Assembly (NCBI GenBank): GCA_016932755.1
Contig: JAFGCE010000085.1
Coordinates: 1 to 55,568 of the forward strand
DNA length: 55,568 nt
Source of the DNA: Candidatus Woesearchaeota archaeon
Lineage (GTDB): Archaea; Nanobdellota; Nanobdellia; Woesearchaeales; JAGWAF01
Direction of reading: 5' to 3'
Shown here: positions 29,780 through 48,506 of the stretch, in pieces
Layout of the letters: the number at the start of each line of letters is the position of its first letter
Position numbering within the stretch: the stretch's first letter is position 1
Translations under genes and position numbers: made by a program
Notes under the pieces: generated by a model
Database searches by the model: none
What the model saw: the letters and a program-made list of their open reading frames with translations, nothing else
Told to the model about the DNA's origin: nothing

Positions 29780-30370
29780 ATGTATGTTGATATTGTTTTC
29801 CCGGATGGAAACGAAAAGGAATTTTTGGAAACAGCGGAAAAGCTGGGCTACAGCAGGCTGGTTTTTGTTTATGAAAAACAGATTCCAGAAGCCCCAAAAT
29901 CAAAAATCAAGATAATCACAGGGCTGGTTGCAGAGGAAAAAACAATCCAAAGGGCAAAAAACCTTGCAGGTTTGGTCCTTGTTAAGTCATCCAGAAATGA
30001 CAGGTGGGTTCTGGAAAAATCAAAAGCAGACATCCTGTTTGGGCTGGAAGAAGGGCAGAGAAAAGATTTTATGCACCACAGGGCTTCAGGATTGAACCAG
30101 ATACTGTGCAAGATTGCAAAACAAAAAGACAAGATGATTGCATTCTCTTTTTCAGCAATACTTAACTCTAAAGGAGAGAGGAGAGCCCAGCTTTTGGGCA
30201 AGATGATGCAGAACATCAAATTCTGCAGGAAATACAAAGTCAGGACAATACTCGCTTCTTTTGCAAAAACACCTTACGGCATGAGGGCGCCTAATGACCT
30301 TGTTAGTTTCGGTGTCAGCCTTGGGATGCATCCAAAAGAAGCAAAGGATTCAATGAGCTGGACAAAATGA
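29780..30370 (+). CDS. rnp3: RNase P protein component 3 (Rpp30/Pop family)
   Basis: From memory, the C-terminal half aligns with archaeal Rpp30 (KYKVR..L.S.A....R.P.DL.S.GV..GM....AK.S.S). 196 aa. Confidence 0.7.
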   Translation: MYVDIVFPDGNEKEFLETAEKLGYSRLVFVYEKQIPEAPKSKIKIITGLVAEEKTIQRAKNLAGLVLVKSSRNDRWVLEKSKADILFGLEEGQRKDFMHHRASGLNQILCKIAKQKDKMIAFSFSAILNSKGERRAQLLGKMMQNIKFCRKYKVRTILASFAKTPYGMRAPNDLVSFGVSLGMHPKEAKDSMSWTK

Positions 30371-31548
30371 ATAGCCTGTGGTTTTTTTTGCCTGGGATAC
30401 TCTATCTTGGCATTATAACATCTTATACAGACATAAAGTACGGCAAGATAAAGAACAGGGACATTGTTATTGGGATTTGTTATGCTTTTGCTGTTTATCT
30501 TGGGTTTATAATTTATTCACTAATAACAAAACAGGGAATAAATTATACCTATTTTCTTGAGCTTTGCACAAACACATTTTTTGCTTTGGCAATAGCTTTT
30601 GGATTGTGGTATTTCAAGCTCTGGTCTGCGGGAGACGGAAAATTATTTTTTGCTTTTGCTTTGCTGGTTCCTTTTGAGGTATATCAATATGGGAAGTATG
30701 ATTGGATTCCTTCCCTCACTTTGCTGTTTAATGTGTTTATCATAGGATTGTTTGCGATGCTTTTGCTGATACTCAAGAATGCAAGGATAAATGATTATGC
30801 AAAGATGTTAAAGACTTTTTTTAAGAATTTTTTTGGGCCTGTGAGGTTAGCAAAGAGCGCAGTTTCCTTGTTTGCAATGTTCTGGCTTATTGACATCGTA
30901 TTTTCTTATTTAGGATGGGAAGGAAACCGCGTTTTGAAATATTTATTTACATTTTTGATTCTTTCCCTGATTCCTGCATTAACCAGTACATTTCCAGCAG
31001 GGAACAAAAAATTCCAAATTGAGTACATTGAATTGTACATTTTTGGGGCAGTATCTGTTGTCAGGCTGGTCATAGACAAATCTGTTTATTCCAGTAGTTT
31101 TTTAGTGGAATTTATCATGATGCTCATTATCTGGAGGATTTTCAGGTCATTAATGAGGCATGGGTTAAGCTCTTTAAGCAAGGACGTGTTTTCTAAGGAA
31201 ATTTCTGTTAAAAAATTGAAACCCGGGATGATACTATCTGACAAAATAACTAAGGTTAAGAAACTAAGCAAAGACGAAATAAAAAAAGTGAAAGACAAAG
31301 AAATGATATTTGTGACTAAGGGGAATGCTTCTTATATCCTTGGGGGGTATAAATCCGCAAAAGAATATATTGATGTCGAATCTGAGGGGCTGGAGAAAGA
31401 GCATATAGAAAAAATAAGAAAAACCGGGCTTAAGAAAGTAAGAATCTCTACAACACTGCCGTTTGCCCCCCTTCTTTTCATGGGTGTTCTAGCGACATTG
31501 TTAATCAAAGGAAACATTTTAATATTAAGGTATTTTCTCTTGAAATAG
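30367..31548 (+). CDS. A24-family prepilin/preflagellin-type aspartic peptidase with a long C-terminal extension
   Basis: First catalytic Asp context SYTDIKYGKIKN and second Asp in WSAGDGKLFFAF (GxGDxK-like). Polytopic. About 150 aa of extra C-terminal sequence. Confidence 0.75.
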   Translation: MNSLWFFLPGILYLGIITSYTDIKYGKIKNRDIVIGICYAFAVYLGFIIYSLITKQGINYTYFLELCTNTFFALAIAFGLWYFKLWSAGDGKLFFAFALLVPFEVYQYGKYDWIPSLTLLFNVFIIGLFAMLLLILKNARINDYAKMLKTFFKNFFGPVRLAKSAVSLFAMFWLIDIVFSYLGWEGNRVLKYLFTFLILSLIPALTSTFPAGNKKFQIEYIELYIFGAVSVVRLVIDKSVYSSSFLVEFIMMLIIWRIFRSLMRHGLSSLSKDVFSKEISVKKLKPGMILSDKITKVKKLSKDEIKKVKDKEMIFVTKGNASYILGGYKSAKEYIDVESEGLEKEHIEKIRKTGLKKVRISTTLPFAPLLFMGVLATLLIKGNILILRYFLLK

Positions 31549-31558
31549 GGGTGATTAT

Positions 31559-31996
31559 ATGCCAGATTCCGGTAATCTTAGAATAGAAAACAATCAATTA
31601 ACCATCTCTGTTAATCCCAAGCTTTATCCTTTGGAGGCAGTTTATTCTGCAGCCTACGTTTTCATGGACAGGGCTTATATTGTTCTGGACGGTGACCCAG
31701 ACAAAGGAATACTTGTTAAAATGAAGCTCAAAAAAGAAGGTTCTTTGGAGACACTTGGAAATGAATTCAACAATGAGCTGCTTAATTATTCTGACTATCT
31801 AACTAGAGCAAAAGAGACAAAAATTATAAGAGAATTGCTACTGCAAAGAGCGATAATAACCAACGATTCTTCTGTAGCAGAAAGCATAGATTTTGATGAG
31901 CTTGAGAATCTTGAGGAAGAATTTTTAGATGACCCCGAGGGGATAGCTATCCCGTGGGAAGAAAAATATGGCAAAGATGAAAATAAACCTGAATAA
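31559..31996 (+). CDS. hxsD: HxsD-like protein (His-Xaa-Ser system accessory protein)
   Basis: From memory, the HxsD family is named for an LLNDYxLRE-like motif. Here: NEFNNELLNYSDYLTRAKE after an (N.K.Y..EA...A...F) N-terminal block. GGGGTGA SD. Sits next to HxsB- and HxsA-like genes. Confidence 0.6.
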   Translation: MPDSGNLRIENNQLTISVNPKLYPLEAVYSAAYVFMDRAYIVLDGDPDKGILVKMKLKKEGSLETLGNEFNNELLNYSDYLTRAKETKIIRELLLQRAIITNDSSVAESIDFDELENLEEEFLDDPEGIAIPWEEKYGKDENKPE

Positions 31997-32171
31997 TAAA
32001 TTCTATAAAAAGGAGGCAATAGAAAAAGCAATTGCGGCATTTAAGGAAGTGTGCCCTTGCAGAATTATTAATTGTTCTTTTGAGGTTGAGATCAATGCAG
32101 AAGATGATGCTGTTGCAGACGAGTTTTGTAATTTTGTCCTTGGCATAACAAAAGACAGCATGCTTTTCTAA
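31968..32171 (+). CDS. short HxsD-like paralog
   Basis: 67 aa. MKINLNNKFYKKEAIEKAIAAF aligns with VNPKLYPLEAVYSAAYVF of the preceding protein, and ADEFCNFVLG with NEFNNELLN. Overlaps the upstream gene by 29 nt. Confidence 0.4.
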   Translation: MAKMKINLNNKFYKKEAIEKAIAAFKEVCPCRIINCSFEVEINAEDDAVADEFCNFVLGITKDSMLF

Positions 32172-32173
32172 AA

Positions 32174-33553
32174 ATGGGGTATACTATAAACAATTACAGA
32201 TTCAGGGAACTTGATGATAACTATTTTATCACAACAGACAGCGGGAGCTGGATCGCTTTAAACAAGGATGAATTTAACAGCCTTAAATCCAAAAAAATTG
32301 ATGAAAAATTAAAGCAAAAGCTTTTGCAAAGGGAAATACTCTTAGATGAAACAAACGAAAATGAATTTGTTAATGACTTAAGGAAAAGGAACAGCTTTCT
32401 TTTCCAGGGAGCTTCTTTGCATATTGTTGTAGTTACTTTGAGATGCAACATGAACTGTGTCTACTGCCATGCAAGCTCAGTAAGCCAGGATAAGAAGGGG
32501 TTTGATATGGATAAGGACACTGCGAAAAAAACAGTAGACTTCATATTCCAGTCCCCAAGCCCAAATATAACAATAGAATTCCAGGGGGGTGAGCCACTTC
32601 TTAACTGGGAAATTCTCAAGTTTATTGTCGGTTACGCAAAGCAGAAAAACAGAACAGCAAACAAAAAACTTAGTTTTTCTGTTGTTACAAATCTTTCAAT
32701 GATGGATGAAGAAAAAATGCAGTATCTAATCAGGGAAAGGATCCTTGTTTGCACTTCTCTGGACGGGCCAAAAGAGCTGCATGACAAAAACAGGATATTT
32801 GCAAGTTCCAGCAATTATGGGCAGGTTGTTTTTTGGATTAAAAAATTCATGGAGGAATACAAAAAGAAAAAAATAGAGAATGCCCGGATAAATGCTCTGG
32901 TAACATTGACAAAAAAAAGCCTCGGATATCCTGAAGAGATAGTTGATGAATACGTTAACCTTGGGTTGAATTTTATCCATCTTAGATTCCTAAACAATCT
33001 CGGCGTTGCACAAAAAATATGGCCACAAATAAGCTATTCTGTTGAAGAATACCTTGCTTTTTGGGAAAAAGCCATGGGAAGAATAAAAAAACATCAAAAA
33101 GATGGAAAAGAAATCTCAGAAAGGATTGTTGACATAATAGCTCACAAGATAGGGACAAAATACGACCCAAATTATTTGGACCTGAGAAGCCCCTGCGGGG
33201 TTGCAATAGGGCAACTTGCCTACCATTATAATGGGGATGTTTACACATGTGATGAGGGCAGGATGGTAGGAGATGAAATTTTTCTTTTGGGCAATGTGAA
33301 AAAAGACAGCTATAAGGATGCAGTAACCTGTGACAAGGCTTGCGCTGTCCTGAATGCCTCAATAAATGACCAGTTTGTCTGCGATGCATGCGCGTACAAG
33401 CCTTACTGCGGGCTTTGCCCTGTCTGCAGTTTTTCAGAAGAAGGGAGCATAATTGGAAAGGTTAGCCAGTCTGCGAGATGCAGGATTTTCAAAAGGCAGT
33501 TTGACTGGGTTGTTAAGGAAAGATTTATAAATCAAAAAAAGGACAATAAATAA
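32174..33553 (+). CDS. hxsB: radical SAM/SPASM maturase, HxsB-like
   Basis: CNMNCVYC at 32444-32467, GGEPLL, and a C-terminal SPASM-type Cys cluster (CGV...YTCDEG...CDACAYKPYCGLCPVC...ARC). 459 aa. Confidence 0.8.
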   Translation: MGYTINNYRFRELDDNYFITTDSGSWIALNKDEFNSLKSKKIDEKLKQKLLQREILLDETNENEFVNDLRKRNSFLFQGASLHIVVVTLRCNMNCVYCHASSVSQDKKGFDMDKDTAKKTVDFIFQSPSPNITIEFQGGEPLLNWEILKFIVGYAKQKNRTANKKLSFSVVTNLSMMDEEKMQYLIRERILVCTSLDGPKELHDKNRIFASSSNYGQVVFWIKKFMEEYKKKKIENARINALVTLTKKSLGYPEEIVDEYVNLGLNFIHLRFLNNLGVAQKIWPQISYSVEEYLAFWEKAMGRIKKHQKDGKEISERIVDIIAHKIGTKYDPNYLDLRSPCGVAIGQLAYHYNGDVYTCDEGRMVGDEIFLLGNVKKDSYKDAVTCDKACAVLNASINDQFVCDACAYKPYCGLCPVCSFSEEGSIIGKVSQSARCRIFKRQFDWVVKERFINQKKDNK

Positions 33554-33564
33554 AAAGAGGTAAG

Positions 33565-33948
33565 ATGGCATCAGTATACAGCAGAATTCCAGTTTTTAAG
33601 AAAAAAATAAGCTCTTTTCTTGCAAAAGAAGACGGCAAGATTAGCAAGGAGAATTTGATTAAAGCAGGCATCTTGGCAGCAATCCTTTCTGCAGGAGCAG
33701 CTGCAAGCGCAAAACAGGTTTCTGCCAGTGTAAGCTGCGACCCGTCATGCAGTGGAAACCCAGACCCGCCTAATGAACTCAATGTAGATAAAGACCTTGA
33801 CCCTATCCATTATAATTTTTTGCGCTTGGGCAAGTCCGGAGGAGCTTTTCAGGGAACCCACGAGCACTGTATAGAATCCTGTCATGTAAGCCATTCCTCT
33901 CATGGCAGCCATGGCAGCCATGGCAGCCATAATTCAACAGGCTGGTGA
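33565..33948 (+). CDS. hxsA: His-Xaa-Ser repeat precursor-like protein (HxsA-like)
   Basis: 127 aa. Basic N-region plus hydrophobic AGILAAILSAGAAASA, two C-x2-S-C motifs, and C-terminal HVS-HSS-HGS-HGS-HGS-HNS-TGW. GAGGT SD. Confidence 0.75.
   Translation: MASVYSRIPVFKKKISSFLAKEDGKISKENLIKAGILAAILSAGAAASAKQVSASVSCDPSCSGNPDPPNELNVDKDLDPIHYNFLRLGKSGGAFQGTHEHCIESCHVSHSSHGSHGSHGSHNSTGW
33883..33936 (+). repeat. six in-frame His-Xaa-Ser codon triplets, including a perfect 3 x 9-bp tandem repeat (catggcagc, 33901-33927)
   Basis: Read directly from the sequence. Confidence 0.95.
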
Positions 33949-33970
33949 TTATTTTAACAGGCATAATAAA

Positions 33971-34543
33971 ATGGTATCCGAAAAAAGACCAACAATTCTT
34001 TTTTTTGTTTTAATCTTATTCGTTCTCATAGCTCTTGCTTTTTTGATTTATTTCTTTATGATGAGAGAGCCTGAACCAAAAATAAACGAGAGGGAGACAG
34101 TACAATTAGATATCATGATCTCCGAAACAAAAGGCATAACAGATTGCGAAGCCTTAAACTTCACTAATCAGAGTGTTAATTTCACAGATGAGCTATCCCC
34201 TGAAGAATGCAAAAGTTTGCTGTACTTACGAGAAATAGTTAAAAGAGGGGACTGCTCCTTGTCTCCTGCGGGCTACTTTGACGAGGAAATAATACTTGAA
34301 GGTGAAGTAACAAAATACTGCGAAGCCATAATTTCAGGGGATGCAAGCAAATGCAGCGATATAAATGTAGACACGATGAAGATTAGTTGCCGGTATTTTG
34401 CTGCAAGACTTGTCCAAGCGTACAGGGAAAAGAATGCAGCCCTGTGCGAATTAAATAAAGATGAGAGTTATACAGTACCTATTGAAAGCGAGGATTATTT
34501 TTTCCCATTAGATGTCTGCAAAGCATTGTCTGCAATGCCTTAA
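33971..34543 (+). CDS. N-terminally membrane-anchored Cys-rich protein
   Basis: ATG at 33971 (MVSEKRPTILFFVLILFVLIALAFLIYFFMM), then about 150 aa with 8 Cys. Last gene of the plus-strand Hxs string. Confidence 0.55.
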   Translation: MVSEKRPTILFFVLILFVLIALAFLIYFFMMREPEPKINERETVQLDIMISETKGITDCEALNFTNQSVNFTDELSPEECKSLLYLREIVKRGDCSLSPAGYFDEEIILEGEVTKYCEAIISGDASKCSDINVDTMKISCRYFAARLVQAYREKNAALCELNKDESYTVPIESEDYFFPLDVCKALSAMP

Positions 34544-36837
34544 TTCTCTTCATTGACTACCTCTATTTTTTTGGAAATATCATCTAACTTGCTGAACAAT
34601 TCCTTATTATCCAAGAATTTATTTTTTACTAAAAAAACTGGAAAATTTATTTCAAAATCAGAAGTTGATGAAGCATATTTTGAGAACATAAACGGGGAAA
34701 TTTCGCTAAAAAATCCTTTTGCCCCGGGCTTCCAATAAGGGTGCATGTTGAATACCTTGATTCCTGAATTTAGATAGCTCTGGAAATGTACCGTGCCTGG
34801 TTTTATCTGGAAAGGGTATGCTAATAATGAAGTATTTTCTGATTTTAAATTATGAAAAAATTCATAAGAAGCGTCCATATCCTCTTTTTTCTCTTGGGGA
34901 GAGCCAAAAATATAAGAGTAAGTCACTTTAAGATTAGAATTCCCGATAACAGGAATTATTTTCTTTATATGATCAATATACTCTTGTGGATTTTGGCTTT
35001 TATTGAAAAATTTTATGATGCTTGGGAATACGGATTCAATGCCTATAAAGAATTCGAGATTCTTGTTTTCTAATTTTTTAATTAGCTCTTTTGAAAAACT
35101 ATCAATCCTTGTCTGCAGACTGAATCTCATATCAAATTTGCCGAATAAGTTCAGCAAATTTTTCCCTCTTTCGCAACTAGGGTTAAATGACGAATCCTTA
35201 ATTTGTATTGCATTAATGTCATAAAGCTTGGATAATCTTGCCAGCTGGTTTTTAACATAATCCTCACTAAAGACGGTGCGGGGAGAGCAGGAATTATGCA
35301 TACAGAAACTGCATTTATTGGTGCATCCGACCGAAGTAAAGATTTCCGCCCTCTTGCCATAACTCTTGATGTTAAAACCCTCAAAGTCGTCATAGTCAAA
35401 AACAACCGGATTTTCCTCAGACGGTCTTCCGTAATTTATTTTGCGTGCATCTGTATTTTTTTTTAGGTAAATCTTTTCAATTAATTCAAGAACTTCCTTC
35501 CTTCCTGTGGCTATGTAGCTCTCATCCCCCTTGCAATTTCTGATTATGCAAGACAGAATTTTTGGCTCCAAAAAAAAGGAGTAAAAAATTATTTTCGTAT
35601 TTGAATCCTTCTTTAGCCTCTCTATTAGCTCAAGTGAGAATAGTATGTCTGATCTGGGTGTGGCAGAAAACACTAGTATTTTGGGGCTCATGCCAAGCAC
35701 TTTATTTTTTATTGAATCAATTGCTTTCTCTCTTTTTTCCCTTATCTCTTCCTCTTTTTTGGAGTCATAAAGCCCCCTTATGCAGGAAGAGAAATCAAGC
35801 CCTGTGCACCTGTCCTTGAATTTTTGTTTTGCTTCTTTCAGGAGCATAGCAAAATGAGGGAAGGGAGGTCTTCCGCTCGCATTTCTTTCTAGCACAGGTA
35901 TCCAAATGAATAGCGTGTCTTGGTGATTTTTTTTGGGCAATGTGGGGTAGTACTTAAGGTATTCTTTCCAATATCCCTCGCATTTATCGGAATACGCACA
36001 TTTTTCGCATTTGTAAATTTTTGTCCTTGCTATACTCTTCCTGTTTTTTTCAACTGATTTATTTATGAAGTCAGGAGCTATATGCTCGGTATGGAATGTT
36101 TGTGTTTCGTGTAGCTCGCTGATTTGGCTGTGGTACTCTTCATTTACATAGCATAAAGGGTAATACCTAACATGCCAGTGTCTTGCTTTTATTTCTCTTC
36201 CAAATTTTAAAAGATTGTTTACATAAGGCGAAACCTGCTCATAAGTGGGGACAACTTCCAAGAAATTATTCTTTGTAGCGCCATGGGTGGGATCCACGAA
36301 TATAAATTCAGAGTTCCGTATCCCCATACCAAAAATTAATTTGCCTATCTCCAGAAGATTTTTATAATTTTGTTTAACAATTGTTGTATTAGAGCCAATA
36401 TTTTTGAATCCAATCTCCTGCAGGTTTTTTATGCCTTCTCTTAGCTGTTCAAAACTTCCGGGAACTTGTGTTAATTTGTCATGGAGCTCTGCATTATGCC
36501 CGTGTATTGAAAAGACGATATGGCTGAGCCCGCATTCGATAATTTTTCTTGCAAAATCCTTTTTTGAGAACATTCTGCCGTTAGTGGCAATCATTATTGT
36601 CCGGAAATCAAGTTTTTTTGCAAATGCAATAATCCCTAAAATATCCTTCCTTATTGTAGGTTCTCCCCCGATAAATTCTATGTAATCTGCCCCGCTTTTT
36701 TTTGCATTAATAATATCCTTCTTCACTTCCTCGGTCGTTTTATCTTTTATCTTCTGTCTTTTGTTTTCATTGCAGCAGAAAATACATTTGTTGTTGCATG
36801 AATACCCCATAAGTATTACTGTTTTCTTAATTTTCAT
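34540..36837 (-). CDS. dual radical SAM protein (HxsC-like-type module + class-B-like second radical SAM domain)
   Basis: CNNKCIFC at 36775-36798 with a module-ending CEKCAYSDKCEGYWKEY. Second core VGCTNKCSFC at 35302-35325, preceded by a Rossmann-like segment. ATG at 36837 preferred over the TTG at 36858. Confidence 0.8.
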   Translation of the reverse strand: MKIKKTVILMGYSCNNKCIFCCNENKRQKIKDKTTEEVKKDIINAKKSGADYIEFIGGEPTIRKDILGIIAFAKKLDFRTIMIATNGRMFSKKDFARKIIECGLSHIVFSIHGHNAELHDKLTQVPGSFEQLREGIKNLQEIGFKNIGSNTTIVKQNYKNLLEIGKLIFGMGIRNSEFIFVDPTHGATKNNFLEVVPTYEQVSPYVNNLLKFGREIKARHWHVRYYPLCYVNEEYHSQISELHETQTFHTEHIAPDFINKSVEKNRKSIARTKIYKCEKCAYSDKCEGYWKEYLKYYPTLPKKNHQDTLFIWIPVLERNASGRPPFPHFAMLLKEAKQKFKDRCTGLDFSSCIRGLYDSKKEEEIREKREKAIDSIKNKVLGMSPKILVFSATPRSDILFSLELIERLKKDSNTKIIFYSFFLEPKILSCIIRNCKGDESYIATGRKEVLELIEKIYLKKNTDARKINYGRPSEENPVVFDYDDFEGFNIKSYGKRAEIFTSVGCTNKCSFCMHNSCSPRTVFSEDYVKNQLARLSKLYDINAIQIKDSSFNPSCERGKNLLNLFGKFDMRFSLQTRIDSFSKELIKKLENKNLEFFIGIESVFPSIIKFFNKSQNPQEYIDHIKKIIPVIGNSNLKVTYSYIFGSPQEKKEDMDASYEFFHNLKSENTSLLAYPFQIKPGTVHFQSYLNSGIKVFNMHPYWKPGAKGFFSEISPFMFSKYASSTSDFEINFPVFLVKNKFLDNKELFSKLDDISKKIEVVNEEN

Positions 36838-37747
36838 TTTTATCTTTCCCGAATTCAATCAAGATGCCCGAAAATTTATCCCTTTTTTCAATAATGTCTT
36901 GGCTTGCATTTGGGATACTTATTGAATCTTTGCTTAAGGTTAATTTTTTGGTTATAAGGAGGGTTTTTCTAAATTTTTCGGAGGGCATATTCAAATTTTT
37001 TCCAGTGCCATTCCCCCCAAACTGGAGACACTTGCTAAATTTGACAGTTCCTGCCGAGAAATAGTTGTTGAATGTTATCTGGAACCTTGTGTCGTGAAAC
37101 AGCCGTATTCCATGCGAGCAGTCAAACCAAAGCAGGATTGGCTTGGACAGCCATCCTGAAATTTTATCTGCAAATGGCTGATTTATTTTTTCAATAAATG
37201 CCAGGATTTCCTTGTTGTATTTGATAGTTTTTTCGCAGCCGAAACTGCATGGCTGGTGAAAGCTCAATGAGAGGTTATGGGGATACAAAAGCCAGTTGCA
37301 GTAGCAGGACTTAATTCCTTTGAGTTTTTTTAGTAAATGTTCGTGCGCTTCCTCCTTATTTTTTTTGATTAGACTGGCTTGGTCATTTATGCAGCAGAGA
37401 GGATAGCCAAGAGCTTTTGCAAAGTCGAGCATTTCTTTTTCTGTTTGCTTTTCGTATTTGTTTTCAGGGTCATTCAGGGAGTAGTATTCTGCCAGTTCCT
37501 TGTCTTTGGAAATATATGCTGGAAGCAACAAGCCTCTTCCCTTTCCAAAAGAAACATGTACATCAAAAAGTTTGAAAATCTTGGCAAACTTTTCTTTATT
37601 TTCTTTGTGCACATGCATCTTAGCCAAGTTTTTGATTCCGCTTATTACAGCATAACTATTTGCGCTTATTGGGAAAAAAGATATGACTTTGTCATGTATC
37701 TTCTTGTATTTCTTTAGTTGCTGCTCGCTGCATCTTGTCTTGTCCAT
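36827..37747 (-). CDS. hypothetical Cys-motif protein (GYPLCC ... HQPCSFGCE)
   Basis: 306-aa ORF embedded in the coupled operon. Conserved-looking Cys/His motifs; no family named. Confidence 0.6.
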   Translation of the reverse strand: MDKTRCSEQQLKKYKKIHDKVISFFPISANSYAVISGIKNLAKMHVHKENKEKFAKIFKLFDVHVSFGKGRGLLLPAYISKDKELAEYYSLNDPENKYEKQTEKEMLDFAKALGYPLCCINDQASLIKKNKEEAHEHLLKKLKGIKSCYCNWLLYPHNLSLSFHQPCSFGCEKTIKYNKEILAFIEKINQPFADKISGWLSKPILLWFDCSHGIRLFHDTRFQITFNNYFSAGTVKFSKCLQFGGNGTGKNLNMPSEKFRKTLLITKKLTLSKDSISIPNASQDIIEKRDKFSGILIEFGKDKNEN

Positions 37748-37750
37748 TTT

Positions 37751-38620
37751 TTATTTTCCCGTGTCTTTCACTGGCATGAACTCATTTTCGCCAAAAAAAT
37801 CTAGATAGCTTTTCCATATTCCAGAGCATTCGCTCTTTTTTTGACACAAACTGCACTTTTCAGCAAAAACAACTGATGAAGAGTCCGCAGTGACCCCTTT
37901 TGAATACTCCCACAGCCCTTTTGGCAGGGTGCAGTGGGGGAAATGGAACAGCCATACTTTATATCCTTTTGAAATCAATTTTTTTATTGGAGCCTCGAGA
38001 ACTTCAGATAGCTTAGTTATCCTCTCAGCTACAAATTTGGCATTCTTGCCGGCAGTTCCTGTCAATTTCGGGTTCATAATAACTATTGAATTAAAGTTGC
38101 GGCTTTCAAAGTTATCAATTATAAAATCTGCAATTTCGTTGAAATGCGCGTAATTCATCTTGTGGAGCAGAATCCTTAGCTCAATCTTCACATTGTTTTT
38201 GGCAAGATTTTTTATTCCCGCTATCTTGTACTTGAAACTTGCAGGGTTTCTTGCTATTGAGTTTTGTATTTTAGGATTATGCCCGTATAAAGTCGTGATT
38301 ATCTTTAGGTTTTTTATCTTTGAGATTCTTTCAGTGAATTTGTTATAATAAAATGACTGGGCGTTTGTCAGAATCCCAATCTCATGCGGGTTCTTTTTTT
38401 CAATATACTTTAAAATTTCCAGCAAATCCTTCCTTAAAGTAGGCTCCCCTCCATTTATCTCTATATGGCTGTGAGACTTCAAAATTTCATCAGCCTCCTT
38501 TTTGATATCTTCAAGAGAGGGGTTTTCCATTCCGTATCTTCTTGAGACAGGGCAGGATATGCAGTTGTCATTGCAATTGTATACCACAGGCACAAATGTT
38601 TTATTCTTTATTTTGTTCAT
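37751..38620 (-). CDS. radical SAM protein (single module of the locus-specific paralog family)
   Basis: CNDNCISC at 38552-38575, GGEPTLRKDL, C-terminal CSLCQKKSECSGIWKSY. Confidence 0.8.
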   Translation of the reverse strand: MNKIKNKTFVPVVYNCNDNCISCPVSRRYGMENPSLEDIKKEADEILKSHSHIEINGGEPTLRKDLLEILKYIEKKNPHEIGILTNAQSFYYNKFTERISKIKNLKIITTLYGHNPKIQNSIARNPASFKYKIAGIKNLAKNNVKIELRILLHKMNYAHFNEIADFIIDNFESRNFNSIVIMNPKLTGTAGKNAKFVAERITKLSEVLEAPIKKLISKGYKVWLFHFPHCTLPKGLWEYSKGVTADSSSVVFAEKCSLCQKKSECSGIWKSYLDFFGENEFMPVKDTGK

Positions 38621-40823
38621 TCTTTATTTCTCCGCAAACACTTTTTAAAAAACATAGACTGCACAATCTATTTTTTTCATCTAGGAAACAGTCTTGGTTT
38701 CCGAGATTATTAAATTCTCCTAAAAAGTTGATATACTCAGCGAGAGAAGGGGCATAGCTTTCATAATCTTCAAAATACTCGGGCTCAAAGAACTCAAAAT
38801 GAAGGGGCACTTTTTTATCTTCAGCAAAGGAAATTATGCCTGGCAGGTATTTCTTAAATGAGGACGGCGAAAAACAGAGCTTTTTTGCATTTAAAACGCC
38901 TCTTCCTTTTGGGGCAAATTTCTGGATATTGAACTTATTGACCCCGATTTCATGAAATTCCTTTATAACAGGCAAGATGTCATTCAGGTTGTCCTTAATA
39001 CAGACATAATTTATCCTGACATTAACCCATTCTCTGACAAGATTTATTATGCCTCTTCTTGTTTCTTTGTACGCCCCTTTTACCTGTGTTATTCTGTCGT
39101 GGGTCTGCTCGCTTCCATGAACAGCGACTATTGCACTATTTAATCCGCTCTTGGCTGTGGCTCTAGCGAATTCTTTATTGGAAAATCTCCTGCCGTTTGT
39201 TACAACTCCAATTCTCTGTATTTTCCTGTCAGCGAAAAATCTGATTAGCTTTAGCAGGCTCTTTGCGTATATTGTCGGCTCACCGCCTGTAAAAAATATT
39301 TCTTCGGGCTTCTTTTCCAGTATTTTTTTAACCTGGAACAAAACTTCTTCTTCATTTTTTTTGGCTTTGCTATCCCTATTATTGTCCCAGCAAAAAATGC
39401 AGTTGTTGTTGCAGCTATGCCCGAGGATTATATTTATTGATTTTGGCATGTGTTTTTGTTTCTTTAGCTGCAGGTATCTTTTAATAATAACTGATAAATC
39501 AAAGAAAAATAACGAATAAAGAAACCTTTCTTGAGCTTTTTCAGGAAGGAAAAACATTCTGTTTTTTTCTATCCTTGCCATATTTATCCCTTCCAGTTCT
39601 TTCACTTCTTTCCTGAAATCCTGGAGAAACTCAGATTTGAACAGCGATTTGTACTCAGGAAACCTTATGTATTGCCGGCATGCCAATTCGCATAAGAGGT
39701 AATACCTCTTTTGGCTTTTCTCATCAAGTATAACCCCCTCCGCAGACAGTTCATTAGTTCTGTACCTAACCTTATTAAATATATAAGAGCAGGAATATCT
39801 CCCGATGCCGAAACAGCTGCTTTCCATTCTATTGTCAAAAGAATACTCAAAGTCAAACGAATGCCTTTTTTTTGACAGCAAAAACCATGGAGAGGCTGTC
39901 CTTATGTTGTCCAACAAGGGTCTGTGTAATTCATAATCCTTAACTTTCTCTTTAATGAGCCGGGATAATATTTTGATTTTTTTATTAAGCTGGTTGTAAT
40001 AAAATTTAACATCACCCTTAAAATTATTATCAAGGTATTGATTTGTCGGCTGGAGGGGGTAAAGGGAGATTGAAGACGGGTTAAGTTCGACAAGTTTCTT
40101 TAGGCTTTCAAAAACAGTATTGGCTGAATCCTTTTTAAGACCGACGATTAAATCCAGGCCAACATGCTTTATTCCATACTCCTTCACAAGCCTAACCATC
40201 TTTTTTATTTTTTCATAATCTTGATAAGACCTGTTTTCGGATTCAAGAACCTCTTTATCGAGTGACTGAACCCCCAATGATATAGAGTTAATGCCGTATT
40301 TTTCCAATATCCTCAATTTTTCCTGGTTCAGGCTGTCGGGATTGCTTTCAAATGTTTTTTTCCCTTTCTTTTCAAATTCAAAATTGGCGAATAGGTTTTT
40401 CAGGAGCACATCAATCTGCTTTTCAGATAATATGCTGGGGGTTCCTCCGCCTATATAGAGGCTTTTGAACTTTATGCCTTTGAATACGCTGCTGAAGCAT
40501 TTCATTTGACCAACCAAACCCGAAACATATTCATTTATCTCGTTTTCAGAAGAAACCTTTTTTGAGATGTACATGCAGTATTTGCATTTGCTCCTGCAGA
40601 ACGGAATATGGAGGTAGAATTGAAGGCTATCCCTGGATTTCCCAGATTTTATTTCTGCTGCTCTTTCGCTCCATAACCCTTTTATTTCATGCAAACTAAA
40701 ATTTTTCTTTGGCATGACCAAATCCAGGATATCAGGCAGCAAAAAATTATTTTTGTATCCACTTTTTTTAAGCAAATCAGCAACTTCCCCAAAAAATTTT
40801 ATTTTTTGATGTGCAAACTTCAT
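38601..40823 (-). CDS. fusion of a HemN/HemW-like radical SAM domain and a second radical SAM module
   Basis: N-terminal LHIPFCRSKCKYC (40575-40598), YIGGGTPS, ISLGVQS (HemN-like). C-terminal CNNNCIFC (39390-39413), GGEPTIY, ending CSLCFLKSVCG. Confidence 0.8.
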   Translation of the reverse strand: MKFAHQKIKFFGEVADLLKKSGYKNNFLLPDILDLVMPKKNFSLHEIKGLWSERAAEIKSGKSRDSLQFYLHIPFCRSKCKYCMYISKKVSSENEINEYVSGLVGQMKCFSSVFKGIKFKSLYIGGGTPSILSEKQIDVLLKNLFANFEFEKKGKKTFESNPDSLNQEKLRILEKYGINSISLGVQSLDKEVLESENRSYQDYEKIKKMVRLVKEYGIKHVGLDLIVGLKKDSANTVFESLKKLVELNPSSISLYPLQPTNQYLDNNFKGDVKFYYNQLNKKIKILSRLIKEKVKDYELHRPLLDNIRTASPWFLLSKKRHSFDFEYSFDNRMESSCFGIGRYSCSYIFNKVRYRTNELSAEGVILDEKSQKRYYLLCELACRQYIRFPEYKSLFKSEFLQDFRKEVKELEGINMARIEKNRMFFLPEKAQERFLYSLFFFDLSVIIKRYLQLKKQKHMPKSINIILGHSCNNNCIFCWDNNRDSKAKKNEEEVLFQVKKILEKKPEEIFFTGGEPTIYAKSLLKLIRFFADRKIQRIGVVTNGRRFSNKEFARATAKSGLNSAIVAVHGSEQTHDRITQVKGAYKETRRGIINLVREWVNVRINYVCIKDNLNDILPVIKEFHEIGVNKFNIQKFAPKGRGVLNAKKLCFSPSSFKKYLPGIISFAEDKKVPLHFEFFEPEYFEDYESYAPSLAEYINFLGEFNNLGNQDCFLDEKNRLCSLCFLKSVCGEIKNEQNKE

Positions 40824-47243: not shown

Positions 47244-47245
47244 GA

Positions 47246-48505
47246 ATGTTCAAAAAGTCGCAAGTCACAGTGTTTATCATAATAGCGATTGTGATTATAG
47301 TTATGTTTGGTTTGGGGTATTATGCAATGATTTCAAGGATAACTGAAAAAGGAGAGGAGCAGCTCTTGAGGCAGCAGATAAGCGCAGAAAAAATAAACCC
47401 CCTGAAGGATTACATTACTTCTTGCTTCAGCCTTGCCTCAGCAGACGGGCTTGAGCTTCTGGGAAAACAGGGAGGGTACATTTACAAAAGCCAGGGAGGG
47501 ATAATAGACGACCCTTTTGAAAGCCAGTCAGGGCAGGAATACATAGAATATGAGCAGACAAAGGTTCATTACGGAATTTATGCGCCAATCTCCAATGTAG
47601 GCATGATATTTTTTGCTCAGACCCCGGAATATCCATGGAGCACGTTCCCGAAAGTCTACAACCCTCTAAATCCAGATGAAATTGTTTATGAGGAAAAATA
47701 TGACGGCTATTACGGAAGGAACAAGCTTCCTCCGTTTGAAAAGCCTAAAGAAGGCTCAATACAGGAGCAGCTTGAGGCATTTACAACAAACAGCACATTA
47801 ACCTGCATAGACTGGACAAATTTCCAGCAGCAGGGGCTTGGCATAAAAACAGAAGAGCCGAATGTTTCTGTTACTTTCACAGCGGCAGATGTTACATTTA
47901 CCCTGAACTGGCCGATAGAAGTCACAGACAGCGGTACAGGCGCTGTCACAGACATTAATGAATTTGCAGTTGTTTATCCTGTAAGACTGAGGAAGATTTA
48001 TGATTTTGCAGCCCAGATAATGGACAATGATGTGGGGGACATAACCTACAGCATAGCAGCCACATCCTTGGACGGGCTTACAACTTCAGCAGTAATCCCG
48101 GATATTTTTGGGATGGACGACCTTATTGTAATACATGATGAAGAGTCAAGGATAATAGACAAGGAATACCAATTCAGGTTTATGAGAAAGAACAGGGCTC
48201 CTGCGCTTTATTATGTTGACAACAATACAGACATGGAAGGACCTGTCTGCGTTGACTCACTTGTTCAGTTTGTAGAGCCGGACAAGCTTAACATCGTTGA
48301 TTCATGCGATGACAACTCATTTGAGCTTCAGCTAAAAGCAATAGACCCTGATGAGGATAAGCTTGAGTTTACTTTTGACAGGCAGCTTCCCTATGAAATA
48401 AAGCCTGCAGACATTTATGTAAGGGCATTCAGGATAAAAATCACTGTCAGCGACGGAGAATACAAGGACTGGCAGGATGTTCAAATACCCACAAAAGAGG
48501 AATAG
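47246..48505 (+). CDS. pilin-like (class III signal) surface protein
   Basis: MFKKSQVTVFIIIAIVIIVMFGLGYYAM N-terminus. C-terminal cadherin/Ig-like segment (NRAPALYYVD...ITVSDGE). 2-nt gap to the upstream gene. Confidence 0.6.
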   Translation: MFKKSQVTVFIIIAIVIIVMFGLGYYAMISRITEKGEEQLLRQQISAEKINPLKDYITSCFSLASADGLELLGKQGGYIYKSQGGIIDDPFESQSGQEYIEYEQTKVHYGIYAPISNVGMIFFAQTPEYPWSTFPKVYNPLNPDEIVYEEKYDGYYGRNKLPPFEKPKEGSIQEQLEAFTTNSTLTCIDWTNFQQQGLGIKTEEPNVSVTFTAADVTFTLNWPIEVTDSGTGAVTDINEFAVVYPVRLRKIYDFAAQIMDNDVGDITYSIAATSLDGLTTSAVIPDIFGMDDLIVIHDEESRIIDKEYQFRFMRKNRAPALYYVDNNTDMEGPVCVDSLVQFVEPDKLNIVDSCDDNSFELQLKAIDPDEDKLEFTFDRQLPYEIKPADIYVRAFRIKITVSDGEYKDWQDVQIPTKEE

Positions 48506-48506
48506 G

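What the first reader, a model, noticed from the sequence alone, without database searches (positions are those of the whole stretch)
33565..33948. Precursor-like protein: signal-like N-terminus, two C-x2-S-C motifs and a C-terminal (His-Xaa-Ser)6 tract
The protein has a 33-aa basic N-region, then the hydrophobic AGILAAILSAGAAASA with an ASA|K signal-peptidase-like site. The predicted mature part of about 78 aa contains SCDPSCSG and HEHCIESC. It ends in HVS-HSS-HGS-HGS-HGS-HNS-TGW. Cys residues are the usual substrates of SPASM-type radical SAM enzymes (thioether formation). Ser hydroxyls are plausible targets for the nearby phosphotransferase. The alternating His tract looks like a metal-binding site. 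The alternative cut IK-A|G would mimic the K-[A/G/S] class III sites of the pilin-like proteins in this window.
Basis: partly seen in the sequence, partly recalled or inferred. Interest (0 to 1): 0.75.

Follow-up and report, generated by a model that had tools for sequence, protein, structure and literature searches.

The report
Archaeal His-Xaa-Ser precursor protein (HxsA-like)
This small gene encodes the substrate protein of a radical-SAM "His-Xaa-Ser" maturation system, a kind so far tested only in bacteria (as an antiphage system); here it is an undescribed archaeal (Woesearchaeota) variant that travels with its own prepilin-peptidase-like membrane protease.

Summary
ORF 33565-33948 (+) encodes exactly the 127-aa protein described, with six tandem His-Xaa-Ser units (0 of 200,000 shuffles reach four).

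It is a real, conserved gene: 669 representative clusters in metagenomes. About 30 related loci place it right after a radical-SAM/SPASM gene that passes NCBI's HxsB model (462.8 bits, cut-off 370).

The operon reads A24-like GxGD protease, HxsD, HxsD-like, HxsB, HxsA-like, then a membrane-anchored Cys-repeat protein. A battery of HxsC-like radical-SAM genes lies opposite.

The window protein fails every curated HxsA cut-off, but shorter relatives pass HxsA4. It is therefore a divergent member of the HxsA3/HxsA4 branch.

The parts conserved family-wide are:
- a 33-aa leader;
- Gly35 (G/A/S in 98%);
- an 11-14-aa apolar stretch;
- a [V/A]-x-A site (VSA|S55 in this protein);
- an H-x-N-x-L...G-T-H-x-H hairpin.

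The Cys pairs are clade-specific (40 of 170 relatives have no Cys), so Cys thioethers cannot be the system's defining chemistry.

Most likely the leader guides radical-SAM modification of the His/Ser-rich C-terminal part. The protein is then exported and its leader removed. The product's role is inferred only by analogy with the bacterial antiphage HXS system.

Verdict: a new variant of a known kind, of moderate interest.

The parts
30367..31548 (+). A24-like (GxGD, prepilin-peptidase-type) intramembrane aspartyl protease with an Arc_PepC-type soluble domain. It is the first gene of the conserved core module.
   Evidence: Pfam gives Arc_PepC 25.8 bits (cut-off 23.4) and Peptidase_A24 20.7 bits (below 26.5). 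There are 105 homologues; many carry PF01478 or PF06819 and some are named CpaA. D22 and D90 (AGDGKL) are invariant in 80 sequences. The YxDIKxGKIxN, AGDGKLF and PFAP motifs are conserved in 9 orthologues. The AF2 model has pLDDT 93.5. The Foldseek top PDB hit is FlaK 3s0x (prob 1.00, TM 0.53 on target, E 0.1). It lies directly upstream of HxsD, or beside HxsA, in nearly all related loci.
31559..31996 (+). HxsD-type small protein (145 aa)
   Evidence: TIGR03976 HxsD scores 46.6 bits, just under the cut-off of 50. Orthologues carry a precomputed PF27806:HxsD hit. It is 45-60% identical in the related loci.
31968..32171 (+). HxsD-like small protein (67 aa); its start overlaps the end of HxsD
   Evidence: NF038315 HxsD_rel scores 50.7 bits, above the cut-off of 41. 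It is conserved in most loci.
32174..33553 (+). HxsB, a radical SAM/SPASM maturase
   Evidence: TIGR03978 scores 462.8 bits against a cut-off of 370. Pfam finds Radical_SAM, Fer4_12 and SPASM. It is 36.7% identical to annotated Aeromonas HxsB. The nearest solved structure is the thioether maturase CteB 5wgg (E 1.4e-26).
33565..33948 (+). HxsA-like precursor (127 aa), the finding itself
   Evidence: for the sequence. 100% identical to hypothetical protein JW707_05110 of a Candidatus Woesearchaeota archaeon. 669 representative relatives at E<=1e-3. It matches HxsA3 at the N-terminus (32.5 bits) and HxsA4 at the C-terminus (23.2 bits), both below cut-off.
33565..33669 (+). Conserved leader, residues 1-35 (IPVFKKKISSFLAKEDGKISKENLIKAG). 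It ends at the near-invariant Gly35, the candidate A24-type cleavage point.
   Evidence: In 176 relatives E22 and G24 are 100% conserved, P9 97%, F18 94%, I26 94%, K28 98% and K33 72%. Position 35 is G 93%, A 3%, S 2%. AF2 predicts helices at 4-21 and 28-48 at low confidence.
33670..33726 (+). Apolar h-region (residues 36-49) plus c-region K50-Q-V52-S-A54. It holds two candidate signal-peptidase-I sites, ASA|K50 and VSA|S55.
   Evidence: The apolar run after Gly35 has a median of 11 aa. It is followed by K-x-[V 31%/A 27%]-x-A(64%). The motif occurs in 135 of 176 relatives against 86 +/- 6 in shuffles. The -1 Ala lies 16-19 aa after Gly35.
33736..33750 (+). First Cys pair, C58-D-P-S-C62 (clade-specific)
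   Evidence: Present only in the closest subclade, P0001-P0007 and P0010. 40 of 170 relatives have no Cys.
33805..33876 (+). Conserved core, residues 81-104: H82-x-N84-x-L86 ... G97-T98-H99-x-H101. It is a predicted beta-hairpin and also holds C102.
   Evidence: Both motifs occur at a fixed 15-residue spacing in 141 of 176 relatives. N is 85% conserved and the second His 78%. AF2 predicts strands 81-91 and 94-104 with pLDDT about 72.
33883..33936 (+). (His-Xaa-Ser)x6 tract, residues 107-124, followed by T-G-W
   Evidence: The 9-nt DNA repeat is at 33901-33930. This is the only part that aligns with bacterial HxsA (hhalign, 19 columns). The C-terminal residue is W or Y in 101 of 170 relatives.
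33971..34543 (+). N-terminally membrane-anchored Cys-repeat protein (190 aa). It is a positionally conserved downstream partner.
   Evidence: A protein of this type follows HxsA in L001, L003, L016 and L017, but the sequences barely align. No family hits. The longer ORF from 33902 reads the HxS repeat in another frame (MAAMAAMAA), which is probably an artefact.
34540..36858 (-). Double radical-SAM protein (772 aa): an HxsC4/HxsC-like N-terminal domain plus a second radical-SAM domain
   Evidence: HxsC4 149.5 bits, HxsC 94.6 bits and PhpK-family residues 455-672, all below cut-offs. Pfam finds Radical_SAM twice.
36827..37747 (-). 306-aa protein with a weak DUF483 match
   Evidence: PF04467 19.6 bits, below the cut-off of 25. 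No NCBIfam hit.
37751..38620 (-). HxsC-like radical SAM protein (289 aa). It lacks the N-terminal domain of about 100 aa found in bacterial HxsC.
   Evidence: TIGR03977 scores 173.3 bits, below the cut-off of 267.9. It is 26% identical to residues 117-376 of Aeromonas HxsC.
38601..40823 (-). Fusion of a HemN/HemW-like radical-SAM domain and an HxsC-like radical-SAM domain (740 aa)
   Evidence: STM4012/HemZ/HemW-type match at residues 56-258; HxsC 109 bits at residues 464-674.
40820..42751 (-).
   Evidence: PF00391 80.1 bits and PF01326 71.4 bits. Not found in the other loci. L003 has an APH-like kinase instead.
42726..44531 (-). HxsC4/HxsC-like radical SAM domain fused to DUF364 (601 aa)
   Evidence: HxsC4 153.3 bits and HxsC 101.5 bits, both below cut-offs. 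Pfam finds Radical_SAM and DUF364 at 50.7 bits. It is the best-conserved HxsC-like paralogue, 60-77% identical in L003, L006, L008 and L009.

Best explanation
ORF 33565-33948 encodes the substrate protein (HxsA-type, HxsA3/HxsA4 branch) of an archaeal His-Xaa-Ser radical-SAM maturation system.

Shown here:
- It is a real, widely conserved gene.
- It is the fifth gene of a tightly packed operon: A24-like GxGD protease, HxsD, HxsD-like, HxsB, HxsA.
- Its most conserved part is the N-terminal 35 residues, not the His tract.

Inferred mechanism:
1. The Lys-rich leader (residues 1-33) is the docking element. It presents the protein to HxsB (a SPASM radical-SAM enzyme with an N-terminal extension of about 80 aa), helped by the two HxsD proteins.
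2. HxsB acts on the universally conserved hairpin H82-x-N-x-L...G-T-H99-x-H101.
3. The four HxsC-like radical-SAM paralogues encoded opposite tailor the HxS repeats.
4. The apolar stretch (residues 36-49) takes the C-terminal part across the membrane.
5. The leader is removed at the membrane. The operon's own A24-like protease would cut after Gly35, and/or signal peptidase would cut after V52-S53-A54.
6. This leaves a His/Ser-rich modified product of about 73 aa, ending in Trp, outside the cell.

By analogy with bacterial HXS, the product is an envelope-located effector, possibly antiviral. Consistent with archaea lacking murein, it has no peptidoglycan-binding domain. The two C-x3-C pairs are an add-on of this subclade (disulfides, a metal site, or extra cross-links). 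They are not the system's defining target.
For: Sequence and ribosome-binding site.

Family models:
- HxsB is above the curated cut-off and HxsD-like is above its cut-off. HxsD is 3.4 bits under. HxsA3 and HxsA4 match partially.
- Relatives P0031, P0028 and P0022 pass the HxsA4 cut-off over their full length.
- All 32 first-round relatives hit HxsA3 and 28 hit HxsA4.
- The family is large: 669 representative clusters.

Synteny:
- A24-like, HxsD, (HxsD-like), HxsB, HxsA occur in that order in window, L001, L003-L010, L013, L014, L015, L020, L027, L029, L030, L033-L035, L038 and L041/42.
- In the rearranged L017/L018 the A24-like gene stays next to HxsA while HxsD and HxsB move 8 kb away.
- L015 also has a separate canonical A24 peptidase.
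- Gene gaps in the window are 2-11 nt or overlaps.

Conservation:
- Leader and Gly35 statistics.
- The [V/A]-x-A site occurs in 135 of 176 relatives against 86 +/- 6 in shuffles.
- Core motifs lie at a fixed 15-aa spacing and are predicted as a hairpin.

Protease: the A24-like catalytic Asp residues are invariant and FlaK is the top structural match.

HxsC-like paralogues: they are absent where tandem HxS repeats are absent (L010, L013/L043). Across loci rho = 0.53, p = 0.035, n = 16.

Bacterial precedent (PMC13128918): HxsB, HxsC and HxsD are all required for non-canonical N-terminal cleavage. They are also required for a +8 Da modification inside an HxS repeat of an exported HxsA.
Against: - No biochemical data exist for any archaeal member.
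- The window protein fails all four curated HxsA cut-offs. Only 19 low-complexity columns align with canonical bacterial HxsA. The link to HXS therefore rests on context (HxsB, HxsD), not on HxsA homology.
- No gene here reaches the HxsC cut-off.
- The two candidate cleavage sites cannot be told apart in silico, and SignalP was not available.
- The A24 link is genomic only. Pilin-like genes (homologues of 44661-48505) also recur near the A24-like gene in several loci. L036 lacks the adjacent A24-like gene.
- The correlation between repeat number and HxsC-like paralogues is weak, limited by flank length, and not corrected for phylogeny.
- An antiviral role is pure analogy. There is no PADLOC match. 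The module sits among housekeeping genes rather than in an obvious defence island.
Confidence: 0.7

Rival explanations
1. This is a Cys-targeted RiPP. The SPASM enzyme forms thioether (sacti- or ranthipeptide-like) bridges from the two C-x2-S-C motifs. The Ser residues of the HxS tract are phosphorylated by the nearby phosphotransferase. The His tract binds metal.
For: - After HxsB itself, the best matches of the window's HxsB are thioether or Cys-peptide maturases: PapB 142 bits, SCIFF 132 bits, CcpM 130 bits. The nearest structure is CteB.
- Four Cys in two C-x3-C pairs are conserved in the nearest subclade.
- A PEP-utiliser/PPDK-like phosphotransferase lies in the radical-SAM cluster, and L003 has an APH-like kinase.
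Against: - 40 of 170 relatives have no Cys and 21 have only one, yet they keep HxsB.
- Bacterial HxsA has no Cys. Its mapped modification lies on S-H-R-S-S (PMC13128918).
- The phosphotransferase is not conserved across loci.
- Thioethers or disulfides could still be a subclade-specific extra.
Confidence: 0.12
2. It is a type IV pilin-like protein (class III signal peptide substrate). The A24-like protease removes residues 1-35. The new hydrophobic N-terminus then drives assembly into a surface filament, or anchors the protein, and displays the His-rich tail. The radical-SAM genes would decorate a structural subunit.
For: - A dedicated A24-like protease gene is in the operon and has invariant catalytic Asp residues.
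- Position 35 is G/A/S in 98% of relatives and is followed by apolar residues.
- Pilin-like ORFs and large surface proteins are common in this window and near the module elsewhere.
Against: - The apolar run after Gly35 is only about 11 aa (14 here). It is followed by Lys and a conserved [V/A]-x-A site. The pilin-like ORFs of the same window have more than 20 apolar residues.
- The leader is 35 aa and is the most conserved part of the protein, unlike short class III leaders (established knowledge).
- No pilus assembly ATPase or platform gene lies in the conserved module.
Confidence: 0.1
3. It is an ordinary secreted His-rich (metal-binding) protein that is not post-translationally modified. Its position next to radical-SAM genes would reflect conserved gene order in small DPANN genomes, not function.
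For: - His-rich tails commonly bind Ni, Zn or Cu (general knowledge).
- The module sits beside housekeeping genes: RNase P p30 and a PP-loop ATPase.
- A DUF364 'putative heavy-metal chelation' domain is fused to one radical-SAM gene.
Against: - The adjacency survives deep divergence. HxsB falls to 41-47% identity and the A24-like protein to 25-30% in L013, L030 and L035, and it survives rearrangement in L017.
- The strongly conserved 33-aa leader has no role in a plain secreted protein.
- HxsB-family enzymes are required for HxsA processing in bacteria.
Confidence: 0.05

Closest known systems
Bacterial HXS (His-Xaa-Ser) system HxsD-HxsB-HxsC-HxsA. It was defined in silico by Haft & Basu 2011 (cited from PMC13128918; the paper itself was not readable here). 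Li et al., Nat Commun 2026 (PMC13128918) showed it to be an antiphage system.
   Same: - An HxsB-type SPASM radical-SAM enzyme above the curated cut-off.
- HxsD-type small protein(s).
- HxsC-related radical-SAM enzymes.
- A small exported protein with an N-terminal hydrophobic signal and tandem HxS repeats.
- Non-trivial N-terminal processing is expected.
   Different: - The host is archaeal (Woesearchaeota/DPANN). Li et al. report 99.7% of systems in Pseudomonadota and never mention archaea.
- The gene order is A24-like, D, D-like, B, A, with the C-like genes opposite, instead of D-B-C-A.
- There is an extra, highly conserved 33-aa leader before the signal-like stretch.
- There is no peptidoglycan-binding domain.
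- The repeats are neutral (HGS/HSS) rather than basic (HRS).
- There are 4-7 HxsC-like paralogues, each lacking the bacterial N-terminal domain, instead of one HxsC.
- There is a dedicated GxGD protease.
- Only the repeat aligns with bacterial HxsA.
NCBIfam HxsA4 (NF038313), HxsA3 (NF038309), HxsC4 (NF038332) and HxsD-like (NF038315). These are database-only families with no paper found.
   Same: - The architecture is the same: leader, apolar stretch, H-rich core, HxS repeats, aromatic end.
- Shorter relatives of the window protein pass HxsA4 over their full length.
- The window's 67-aa protein passes HxsD-like.
   Different: - The window protein scores 23.2 bits against a cut-off of 55 (HxsA4, C-terminus only) and 32.5 against 65 (HxsA3, N-terminus only).
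- It belongs to a longer subclade with a 25-aa insert carrying C-x3-C and an H-x-H-C-x3-C motif.
- The window's radical-SAM genes reach only about 150 bits against the HxsC4 cut-off of 500.
SCIFF/CteB and ranthipeptide (PapB) thioether RiPP systems
   Same: - A SPASM radical-SAM maturase with an N-terminal extension.
- A small precursor with a conserved leader and a variable core.
- CteB is the nearest solved structure.
   Different: - Those substrates are defined by conserved Cys donors. Here Cys is dispensable across the family.
- This precursor carries a signal-like segment and is much longer.
Class III signal peptides and their A24 peptidases (FlaK, PibD, PilD)
   Same: - A GxGD protease with both catalytic Asp motifs, with FlaK as the top structural match.
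- A substrate candidate with a basic N-region, then G/A/S, then apolar residues.
   Different: - The leader is 35 aa and conserved, rather than short and variable.
- The apolar segment is about 11-14 aa instead of more than 20 aa, and is followed by an SPase-I-like site.
- The protease is a distinct paralogue, about 34% identical over 89 aa to the canonical A24 of L015.

Membership tests
His-Xaa-Ser (HXS) system | An HxsB radical SAM/SPASM maturase encoded with the repeat protein | tested here: met
   TIGR03978 scores 462.8 bits against a cut-off of 370. The gene ends 11 nt before the ORF. SPASM domain PF13186 scores 22.2 bits against 21.5.
His-Xaa-Ser (HXS) system | An HxsC radical SAM maturase (TIGR03977) adjacent to HxsB | tested here: not met
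   The best candidate, 37751-38620, scores 173.3 bits against a cut-off of 267.9. It lies on the opposite strand and lacks the bacterial N-terminal domain. Three further HxsC-like domains score 95-109 bits.
His-Xaa-Ser (HXS) system | An HxsD small protein (TIGR03976; LYW and LLNDYxLRE motifs) | tested here: inconclusive
   46.6 bits against a cut-off of 50. Variant motifs are visible in the sequence (KLYP, ELLNYSDYLTR). Orthologues carry PF27806:HxsD. A second gene passes HxsD-like, 50.7 bits against 41.
His-Xaa-Ser (HXS) system | A small protein with tandem His-Xaa-Ser repeats | tested here: met
   Six tandem units at residues 107-124.
His-Xaa-Ser (HXS) system | HxsA equivalog model TIGR03979, and a peptidoglycan-binding domain as in E. 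coli and Aeromonas HxsA | tested here: not met
   The window protein does not hit TIGR03979 at E<=0.01. There is no Pfam domain. The protein ends 3 residues after the repeats. hhalign aligns only the repeat.
His-Xaa-Ser (HXS) system | Radical-SAM-dependent covalent modification and N-terminal processing of HxsA; antiviral phenotype | not testable with these tools
   This needs expression and MS, or infection assays. It is known only for E. coli HXS (PMC13128918).
NCBIfam HxsA4 (NF038313) / HxsA3 (NF038309) | Whole-protein score at or above the curated cut-off | tested here: not met
   HxsA4 scores 23.2 bits against 55 (residues 97-125 only). HxsA3 scores 32.5 bits against 65 (residues 9-48 only). 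Relatives P0031 (71.6), P0028 (59.9) and P0022 (55.1) do pass HxsA4.
Sec-type signal peptide (signal peptidase I substrate) | A basic n-region, a 7-15-aa h-region, and small residues at -3 and -1 | tested here: inconclusive
   The h-region is 14 aa. There are two A/V-x-A sites, A49 and A54. The family motif is enriched, 135 of 176 against 86 +/- 6. However, the n-region is 33 aa and highly conserved, which is atypical. SignalP or DeepTMHMM could not be run.
Class III (type IV pilin-like) signal peptide | A short basic leader ending in [K/R]-[G/A/S], followed by an uninterrupted hydrophobic helix of about 20 aa or more, with a cognate A24 peptidase | tested here: inconclusive
   The A24-like gene is present and syntenic. 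Position 35 is G/A/S in 98% of relatives. However, Lys is at -3, not -2. The leader is 35 aa. The apolar run is only 11-14 aa.
Thioether RiPPs (sactipeptide / ranthipeptide / SCIFF) | Conserved Cys donors in the core peptide | tested here: not met
   40 of 170 family members have no Cys and 21 have one. H-x-H-C-x3-C occurs in 18 of 176.
Peptidase family A24 (for gene 30367-31548) | Two catalytic Asp residues, the second in a GxGD motif, in a polytopic membrane protein | tested here: met
   D22 and D90 (A-G-D-G-K-L) are invariant in 80 homologues. FlaK is the top fold match. Arc_PepC is above its cut-off. PF01478 itself is below gathering for this sequence (20.7 against 26.5) but is recorded for many homologues.

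The most novel reading that the evidence does not exclude
In DPANN archaea the HXS-type system has recruited a dedicated paralogue of the prepilin/preflagellin GxGD intramembrane protease as the leader peptidase of a radical-SAM-modified, exported protein. Cleavage would occur after the near-invariant Gly35. A variable battery of HxsC paralogues would tailor the individual HxS repeats, while HxsB acts on the conserved H-x-N-x-L...G-T-H-x-H hairpin. Some family members would instead end the tract with a self-cleaving Hint domain. The product would be an archaeal cell-surface effector, possibly blocking viral genome entry as in bacteria. [quoted passage not shown]
Probability: 0.35. Interest if true: 0.75.

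Novelty: new variant of a known kind. Interest (0 to 1): 0.55.

Why it matters
- The HXS system received its first experimental function only in 2026, as an antiphage system that blocks DNA entry. That study reported it as essentially confined to Pseudomonadota.
- This finding and its relatives show a large, unpublished archaeal branch: at least 669 clusters at 50% identity, with every organism-labelled locus archaeal (mostly DPANN). Its architecture is different.
- It has no murein-binding domain and a long conserved leader. It also has a dedicated GxGD protease, two HxsD proteins and up to seven radical-SAM domains.
- If the inferred mechanism holds, two things follow. It would be the first link between prepilin-peptidase-type proteases and RiPP-like protein maturation. 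It would also give a natural series (0 to 12 HxS repeats, 0 to 7 HxsC paralogues) for working out what HxsB and HxsC each do. That chemistry is still unsolved in the bacterial system (+8 Da, structure unknown).
- It may also point to an envelope-level antiviral or host-interaction factor in ultra-small archaea.

Tried and rejected
- PADLOC scan of the operon proteins: only generic radical-SAM similarity to viperins, with no defence-system match.
- IMG/VR viral contigs: no relatives.
- PDB sequence search with the A24-like protein: only chance hits. FlaK was found only by fold.
- AF2 of the precursor: low confidence (pLDDT 65). It was used only for secondary-structure hints.
- hhalign against bacterial HxsA: only the low-complexity repeat aligns, so homology of the whole protein is not claimed.
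- Conservation of the PPDK-like phosphotransferase and the DUF483-like gene: none in other loci, so they were dropped from the core model.
- Taxonomy of the wider family via cluster look-up: no names returned.
- Haft & Basu 2011 (PMC3133131): not held.
- Literature search for HxsA3, HxsA4, HxsC4 and the TIGR numbers: nothing. A search for DPANN + RiPP + radical SAM returned five papers; by title and abstract none concerns this system, and none was opened.
- Promoter/terminator scan: uninformative for an archaeon.
- Rfam and tRNA scans of the window: empty.
- Rejected: the ORF being a chance or alternative-frame artefact. The overlapping 33902-start ORF is the artefact.
- Rejected: Cys thioethers as the family-defining chemistry.
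Full report
**1. The observation**

Window 33565-33948 (+) is an ATG-to-TGA ORF of 127 codons.

- A GAGGT motif lies 7 nt upstream of the ATG.
- The numbering is K33-A34-G35, apolar 36-49, A47-S48-A49|K50 and V52-S53-A54|S55.
- The Cys pairs are C58-x3-C62 and C102-x3-C106.
- The conserved His residues are H82, H99 and H101.
- The (HxS)6 tract covers residues 107-124 and is followed by T-G-W.
- The tract holds a perfect 9-nt DNA repeat at 33901-33930.
- In 200,000 shuffles of the protein none reached four tandem HxS units. No other (HxS)>=3 tract exists in any frame of the window.

The ORF that starts at 33902 in another frame (MAAMAAMAA...) is that repeat read out of frame. The downstream gene most likely starts at 33971.

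**2. It is a real, conserved gene**

The protein is 100% identical to hypothetical protein JW707_05110 of a Candidatus Woesearchaeota archaeon, on a contig of exactly the window's length.

- A word-indexed search found 32 relatives.
- A profile search of 1.84 billion representatives found 669 at E<=1e-3 and 191 at E<=1e-10.
- Loci from species-representative genomes are all archaeal. They are titled Woesearchaeota, Nanoarchaeota/Nanoarchaeia or Nanobdellota, and several are 'uncultured Methanosarcinales' automated bins.
- Nothing was found in IMG/VR viral contigs.

**3. Context**

NCBIfam scans and Pfam scans give the following map.

| Coordinates | Strand | Assignment | Score |
|---|---|---|---|
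| 30367-31548 | + | A24-like peptidase | Arc_PepC above cut-off |
| 31559-31996 | + | HxsD | 46.6 bits vs 50 |
| 31968-32171 | + | HxsD-like | 50.7 bits vs 41 |
| 32174-33553 | + | HxsB | 462.8 bits vs 370; SPASM present |
| 33565-33948 | + | the ORF | see section 4 |
| 33971-34543 | + | membrane-anchored Cys-repeat protein | no family hit |

On the minus strand, 34540-44531 forms a cluster with seven radical-SAM domains in total, counting HxsB. It contains:
- four HxsC/HxsC4-like domains, all below curated cut-offs;
- a HemN-like domain;
- a second domain of the 772-aa protein;
- a PEP-utiliser/PPDK-like phosphotransferase;
- DUF364 and DUF483-like parts.

The plus-strand genes are separated by 2-11 nt or overlap. 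The RNase P p30 gene overlaps the A24-like start.

**4. Family membership of the ORF**

- The window protein matches HxsA3 only over its N-terminus: residues 9-48, 32.5 bits against a cut-off of 65.
- It matches HxsA4 only over its C-terminus: residues 97-125, 23.2 bits against 55.
- It does not hit TIGR03979.
- All 32 first-round relatives hit HxsA3 and 28 hit HxsA4.
- The shorter relatives P0031, P0028 and P0022 pass the HxsA4 cut-off end to end.

The family is therefore what NCBI curators call HxsA4, with a leader shared with HxsA3. The window protein belongs to a longer, Cys-bearing subclade that the models miss.

Against an annotated bacterial HxsA (Aeromonas salmonicida plasmid 4, operon hxsD-B-C-A), profile comparison aligns only 19 columns of the repeat. 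The assignment to the HXS kind therefore rests on HxsB, HxsD and the architecture. It does not rest on HxsA homology.

**5. Synteny**

I ran tblastn with the window's proteins on 42 related loci and used called genes.

- The order A24-like, HxsD, (HxsD-like), HxsB, HxsA appears in essentially every locus with enough upstream DNA.
- This includes deeply diverged loci. In L013/L043, L030 and L035, HxsB is 41-47% identical and the A24-like protein 25-30%.
- In the rearranged L017/L018 the A24-like gene remains beside HxsA while HxsD and HxsB sit 8 kb away.
- L015 carries a canonical 298-aa A24 peptidase about 1 kb from the Hxs-linked 374-aa paralogue. The two share only 34% identity over 89 residues.
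- One exception is L036, where no A24-like gene was detected next to HxsD or elsewhere in the 20-kb locus. An A24-like homologue (P0202) is listed with a longest contig of the same length as L036's contig (34,297 bases), so it may lie elsewhere on that contig.

The A24-like protein has invariant D22 and D90 (A-G-D-G-K-L) in 80 homologues. Its AF2 model is confident (pLDDT 93.5). The GxGD protease FlaK is its top PDB fold match (prob 1.00, target TM 0.53, E 0.1).

A caveat: pilin-like genes homologous to 44661-48505 also recur near it. It may therefore have other substrates.

**6. Anatomy across 176 relatives**

*Leader.* The leader is the most conserved part.

| Position | Conservation |
|---|---|
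| P9 | 97% |
| K12, K13 | about 90% |
| F18 | 94% |
| E22, G24 | 100% |
| I26 | 94% |
| K28 | 98% |
| K33 | 72% |
| Position 35 | G 93%, A 3%, S 2% |

*Signal-like stretch.* An apolar run follows, with a median of 11 aa (14 here). Then comes K-x-[V/A]-x-A. The Ala is 64% conserved and lies 16-19 residues after Gly35. The motif occurs in 135 of 176 relatives against 86 +/- 6 in shuffles.

*Middle region.* It is hypervariable.

*Core.* H-x-N-x-L and [G/A]-[T/S]-H-x-H sit at a fixed 15-residue spacing in 141 of 176 relatives. AF2 predicts this as a beta-hairpin at modest confidence.

*Repeats and C-terminus.*
- The longest tandem HxS run ranges from 0 to 12: three or more in 77 of 170, and 0-1 in 59 of 170.
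- The last residue is W or Y in 101 of 170.
- Cys is absent after the leader in 40 of 170.

The Cys motifs are thus a subclade feature, and even the repeats are not universal.

**7. Mechanism**

*What is shown.* The gene's existence, its conservation, the operon structure, the HxsB identity and the conservation profile.

*From the literature* (PMC13128918). In E. coli, HxsB, HxsC and HxsD are each needed for a non-canonical N-terminal cleavage of HxsA. They are also needed for a +8 Da modification within the S-H-R-S-S part of an HxS repeat. The matured protein is exported and is required for blocking phage DNA entry. HxsC binds HxsD.

*What is inferred here.*
1. The leader docks the precursor onto HxsB and the HxsD proteins. 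HxsB has an N-terminal extension of about 80 aa that partly aligns with the region preceding the core of CteB.
2. HxsB targets the universal hairpin.
3. The HxsC-like paralogues tailor the HxS repeats.
   - They are absent from loci whose precursor lacks tandem repeats (L010, L013/L043).
   - Their number tracks repeat number weakly: Spearman 0.53, p = 0.035, n = 16, uncorrected for phylogeny and limited by flank length.
4. The apolar stretch mediates export.
5. The leader is removed by the A24-like protease after Gly35, and/or by signal peptidase after A54.

The product's role is unknown. By analogy it is an envelope effector, perhaps antiviral. Metal binding by the His array is an equally untested possibility.

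**8. Rivals**

- *A pilin-like reading.* It is weakened by the short apolar segment and the downstream [V/A]-x-A site.
- *Coincidental synteny.* It is unlikely given the deep conservation and the rearranged locus.

**9. Novelty**

- The kind is known: the HXS system, and the database families HxsA3, HxsA4, HxsC4 and HxsD-like.
- No paper in the searchable library mentions those variant families or an archaeal HXS.
- The 2026 study reports 99.7% of systems in Pseudomonadota and never mentions archaea.
- The following together make this a new variant rather than just a new member:
  - a dedicated GxGD protease;
  - duplicated HxsD;
  - multiple HxsC paralogues;
  - a long conserved leader;
  - loss of the murein-binding domain.

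Interest is moderate (0.55). The identity is largely explained, while the maturation logic and the function remain open and testable.

Noticed in passing
Relatives P0059, P0081, P0096, P0118, P0159, P0043, P0056, P0103 (also truncated P0007 and P0099; locus L020 7644-8447): A subset of the precursor family continues straight after the HxS tract with 'CCFPAGT...', a Hint/intein-like autoprocessing domain. PT-HINT scores 32-36 bits against a cut-off of 27.7, and Intein_splicing scores 40.6 against 35.8. This suggests self-cleavage or C-terminal transfer at the end of the repeat tract in those members.
   Followed up: partly
window 33971-34543 (+); L001 10368-11132; L003 3018-3665; L016 1166-1771; L017 4643-5143: The gene right after the precursor always encodes a protein with an N-terminal membrane anchor and many spaced Cys residues (C-x-x-[LI] type repeats). 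The versions barely align with one another (best E about 5e-4). It is a positionally conserved but fast-evolving partner of unknown role.
   Followed up: partly
window 34540-44531 (-): This is a dense cluster with six radical-SAM domains in four genes. They include a HemN-like+HxsC-like fusion, an HxsC4-like+DUF364 fusion and a double radical-SAM 772-aa protein. There is also a PEP-utiliser/PPDK-like phosphotransferase and a DUF483-like protein. The composition varies between loci: L003 has six consecutive HxsC-like genes plus an APH-like kinase, and L017 has an oxidoreductase fusion.
   Followed up: partly
L010 (HxsA 5248-5511), L013/L043, L030, L035: Loci whose precursor has no tandem HxS repeats (for example L010, which ends ...ATHNHAVNEG) keep A24-like, HxsD, HxsB and HxsA. 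No HxsC-like radical-SAM gene lies within the DNA held. Over 16 loci, repeat number and nearby HxsC-like count correlate weakly (rho 0.53, p 0.035).
   Followed up: partly
L015 449-1345 and 2319-3443: Two A24 peptidase paralogues lie about 1 kb apart: a canonical 298-aa one and the 374-aa Hxs-linked one. They share only 34% identity over 89 residues.
   Followed up: yes
window 44661-55538 (+), and 16670-17857 (-): Several ORFs have class III-signal-like N-termini: a K-[G/A/S] motif followed by more than 20 apolar residues (16670-17857, 47246-48505, 54011-54496, 54504-55538). There is also a 1845-aa surface protein with Big_13 and TSP3 repeats. Homologues of 44661-47243 and 47246-48505 recur near the A24-like gene in L001, L006, L007, L009 and L013.
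   Followed up: partly
window 30367-30370: The stop codon of the RNase P p30 gene (29780-30370) overlaps the start codon of the A24-like gene by 4 nt. The Hxs module may therefore be co-transcribed with a housekeeping gene. In L010 the p30 and PP-loop genes lie on the other side of the module.
   Followed up: no
window 33902-34543 (+): The mechanically listed 213-aa ORF starts inside the HxS tract and reads the 9-nt repeat in another frame (MAAMAAMAA). This is very probably not the true start of the downstream gene.
   Followed up: partly
window 1-55568: No tRNA gene and no Rfam family at gathering score were found in the whole 55.5-kb contig.
   Followed up: yes
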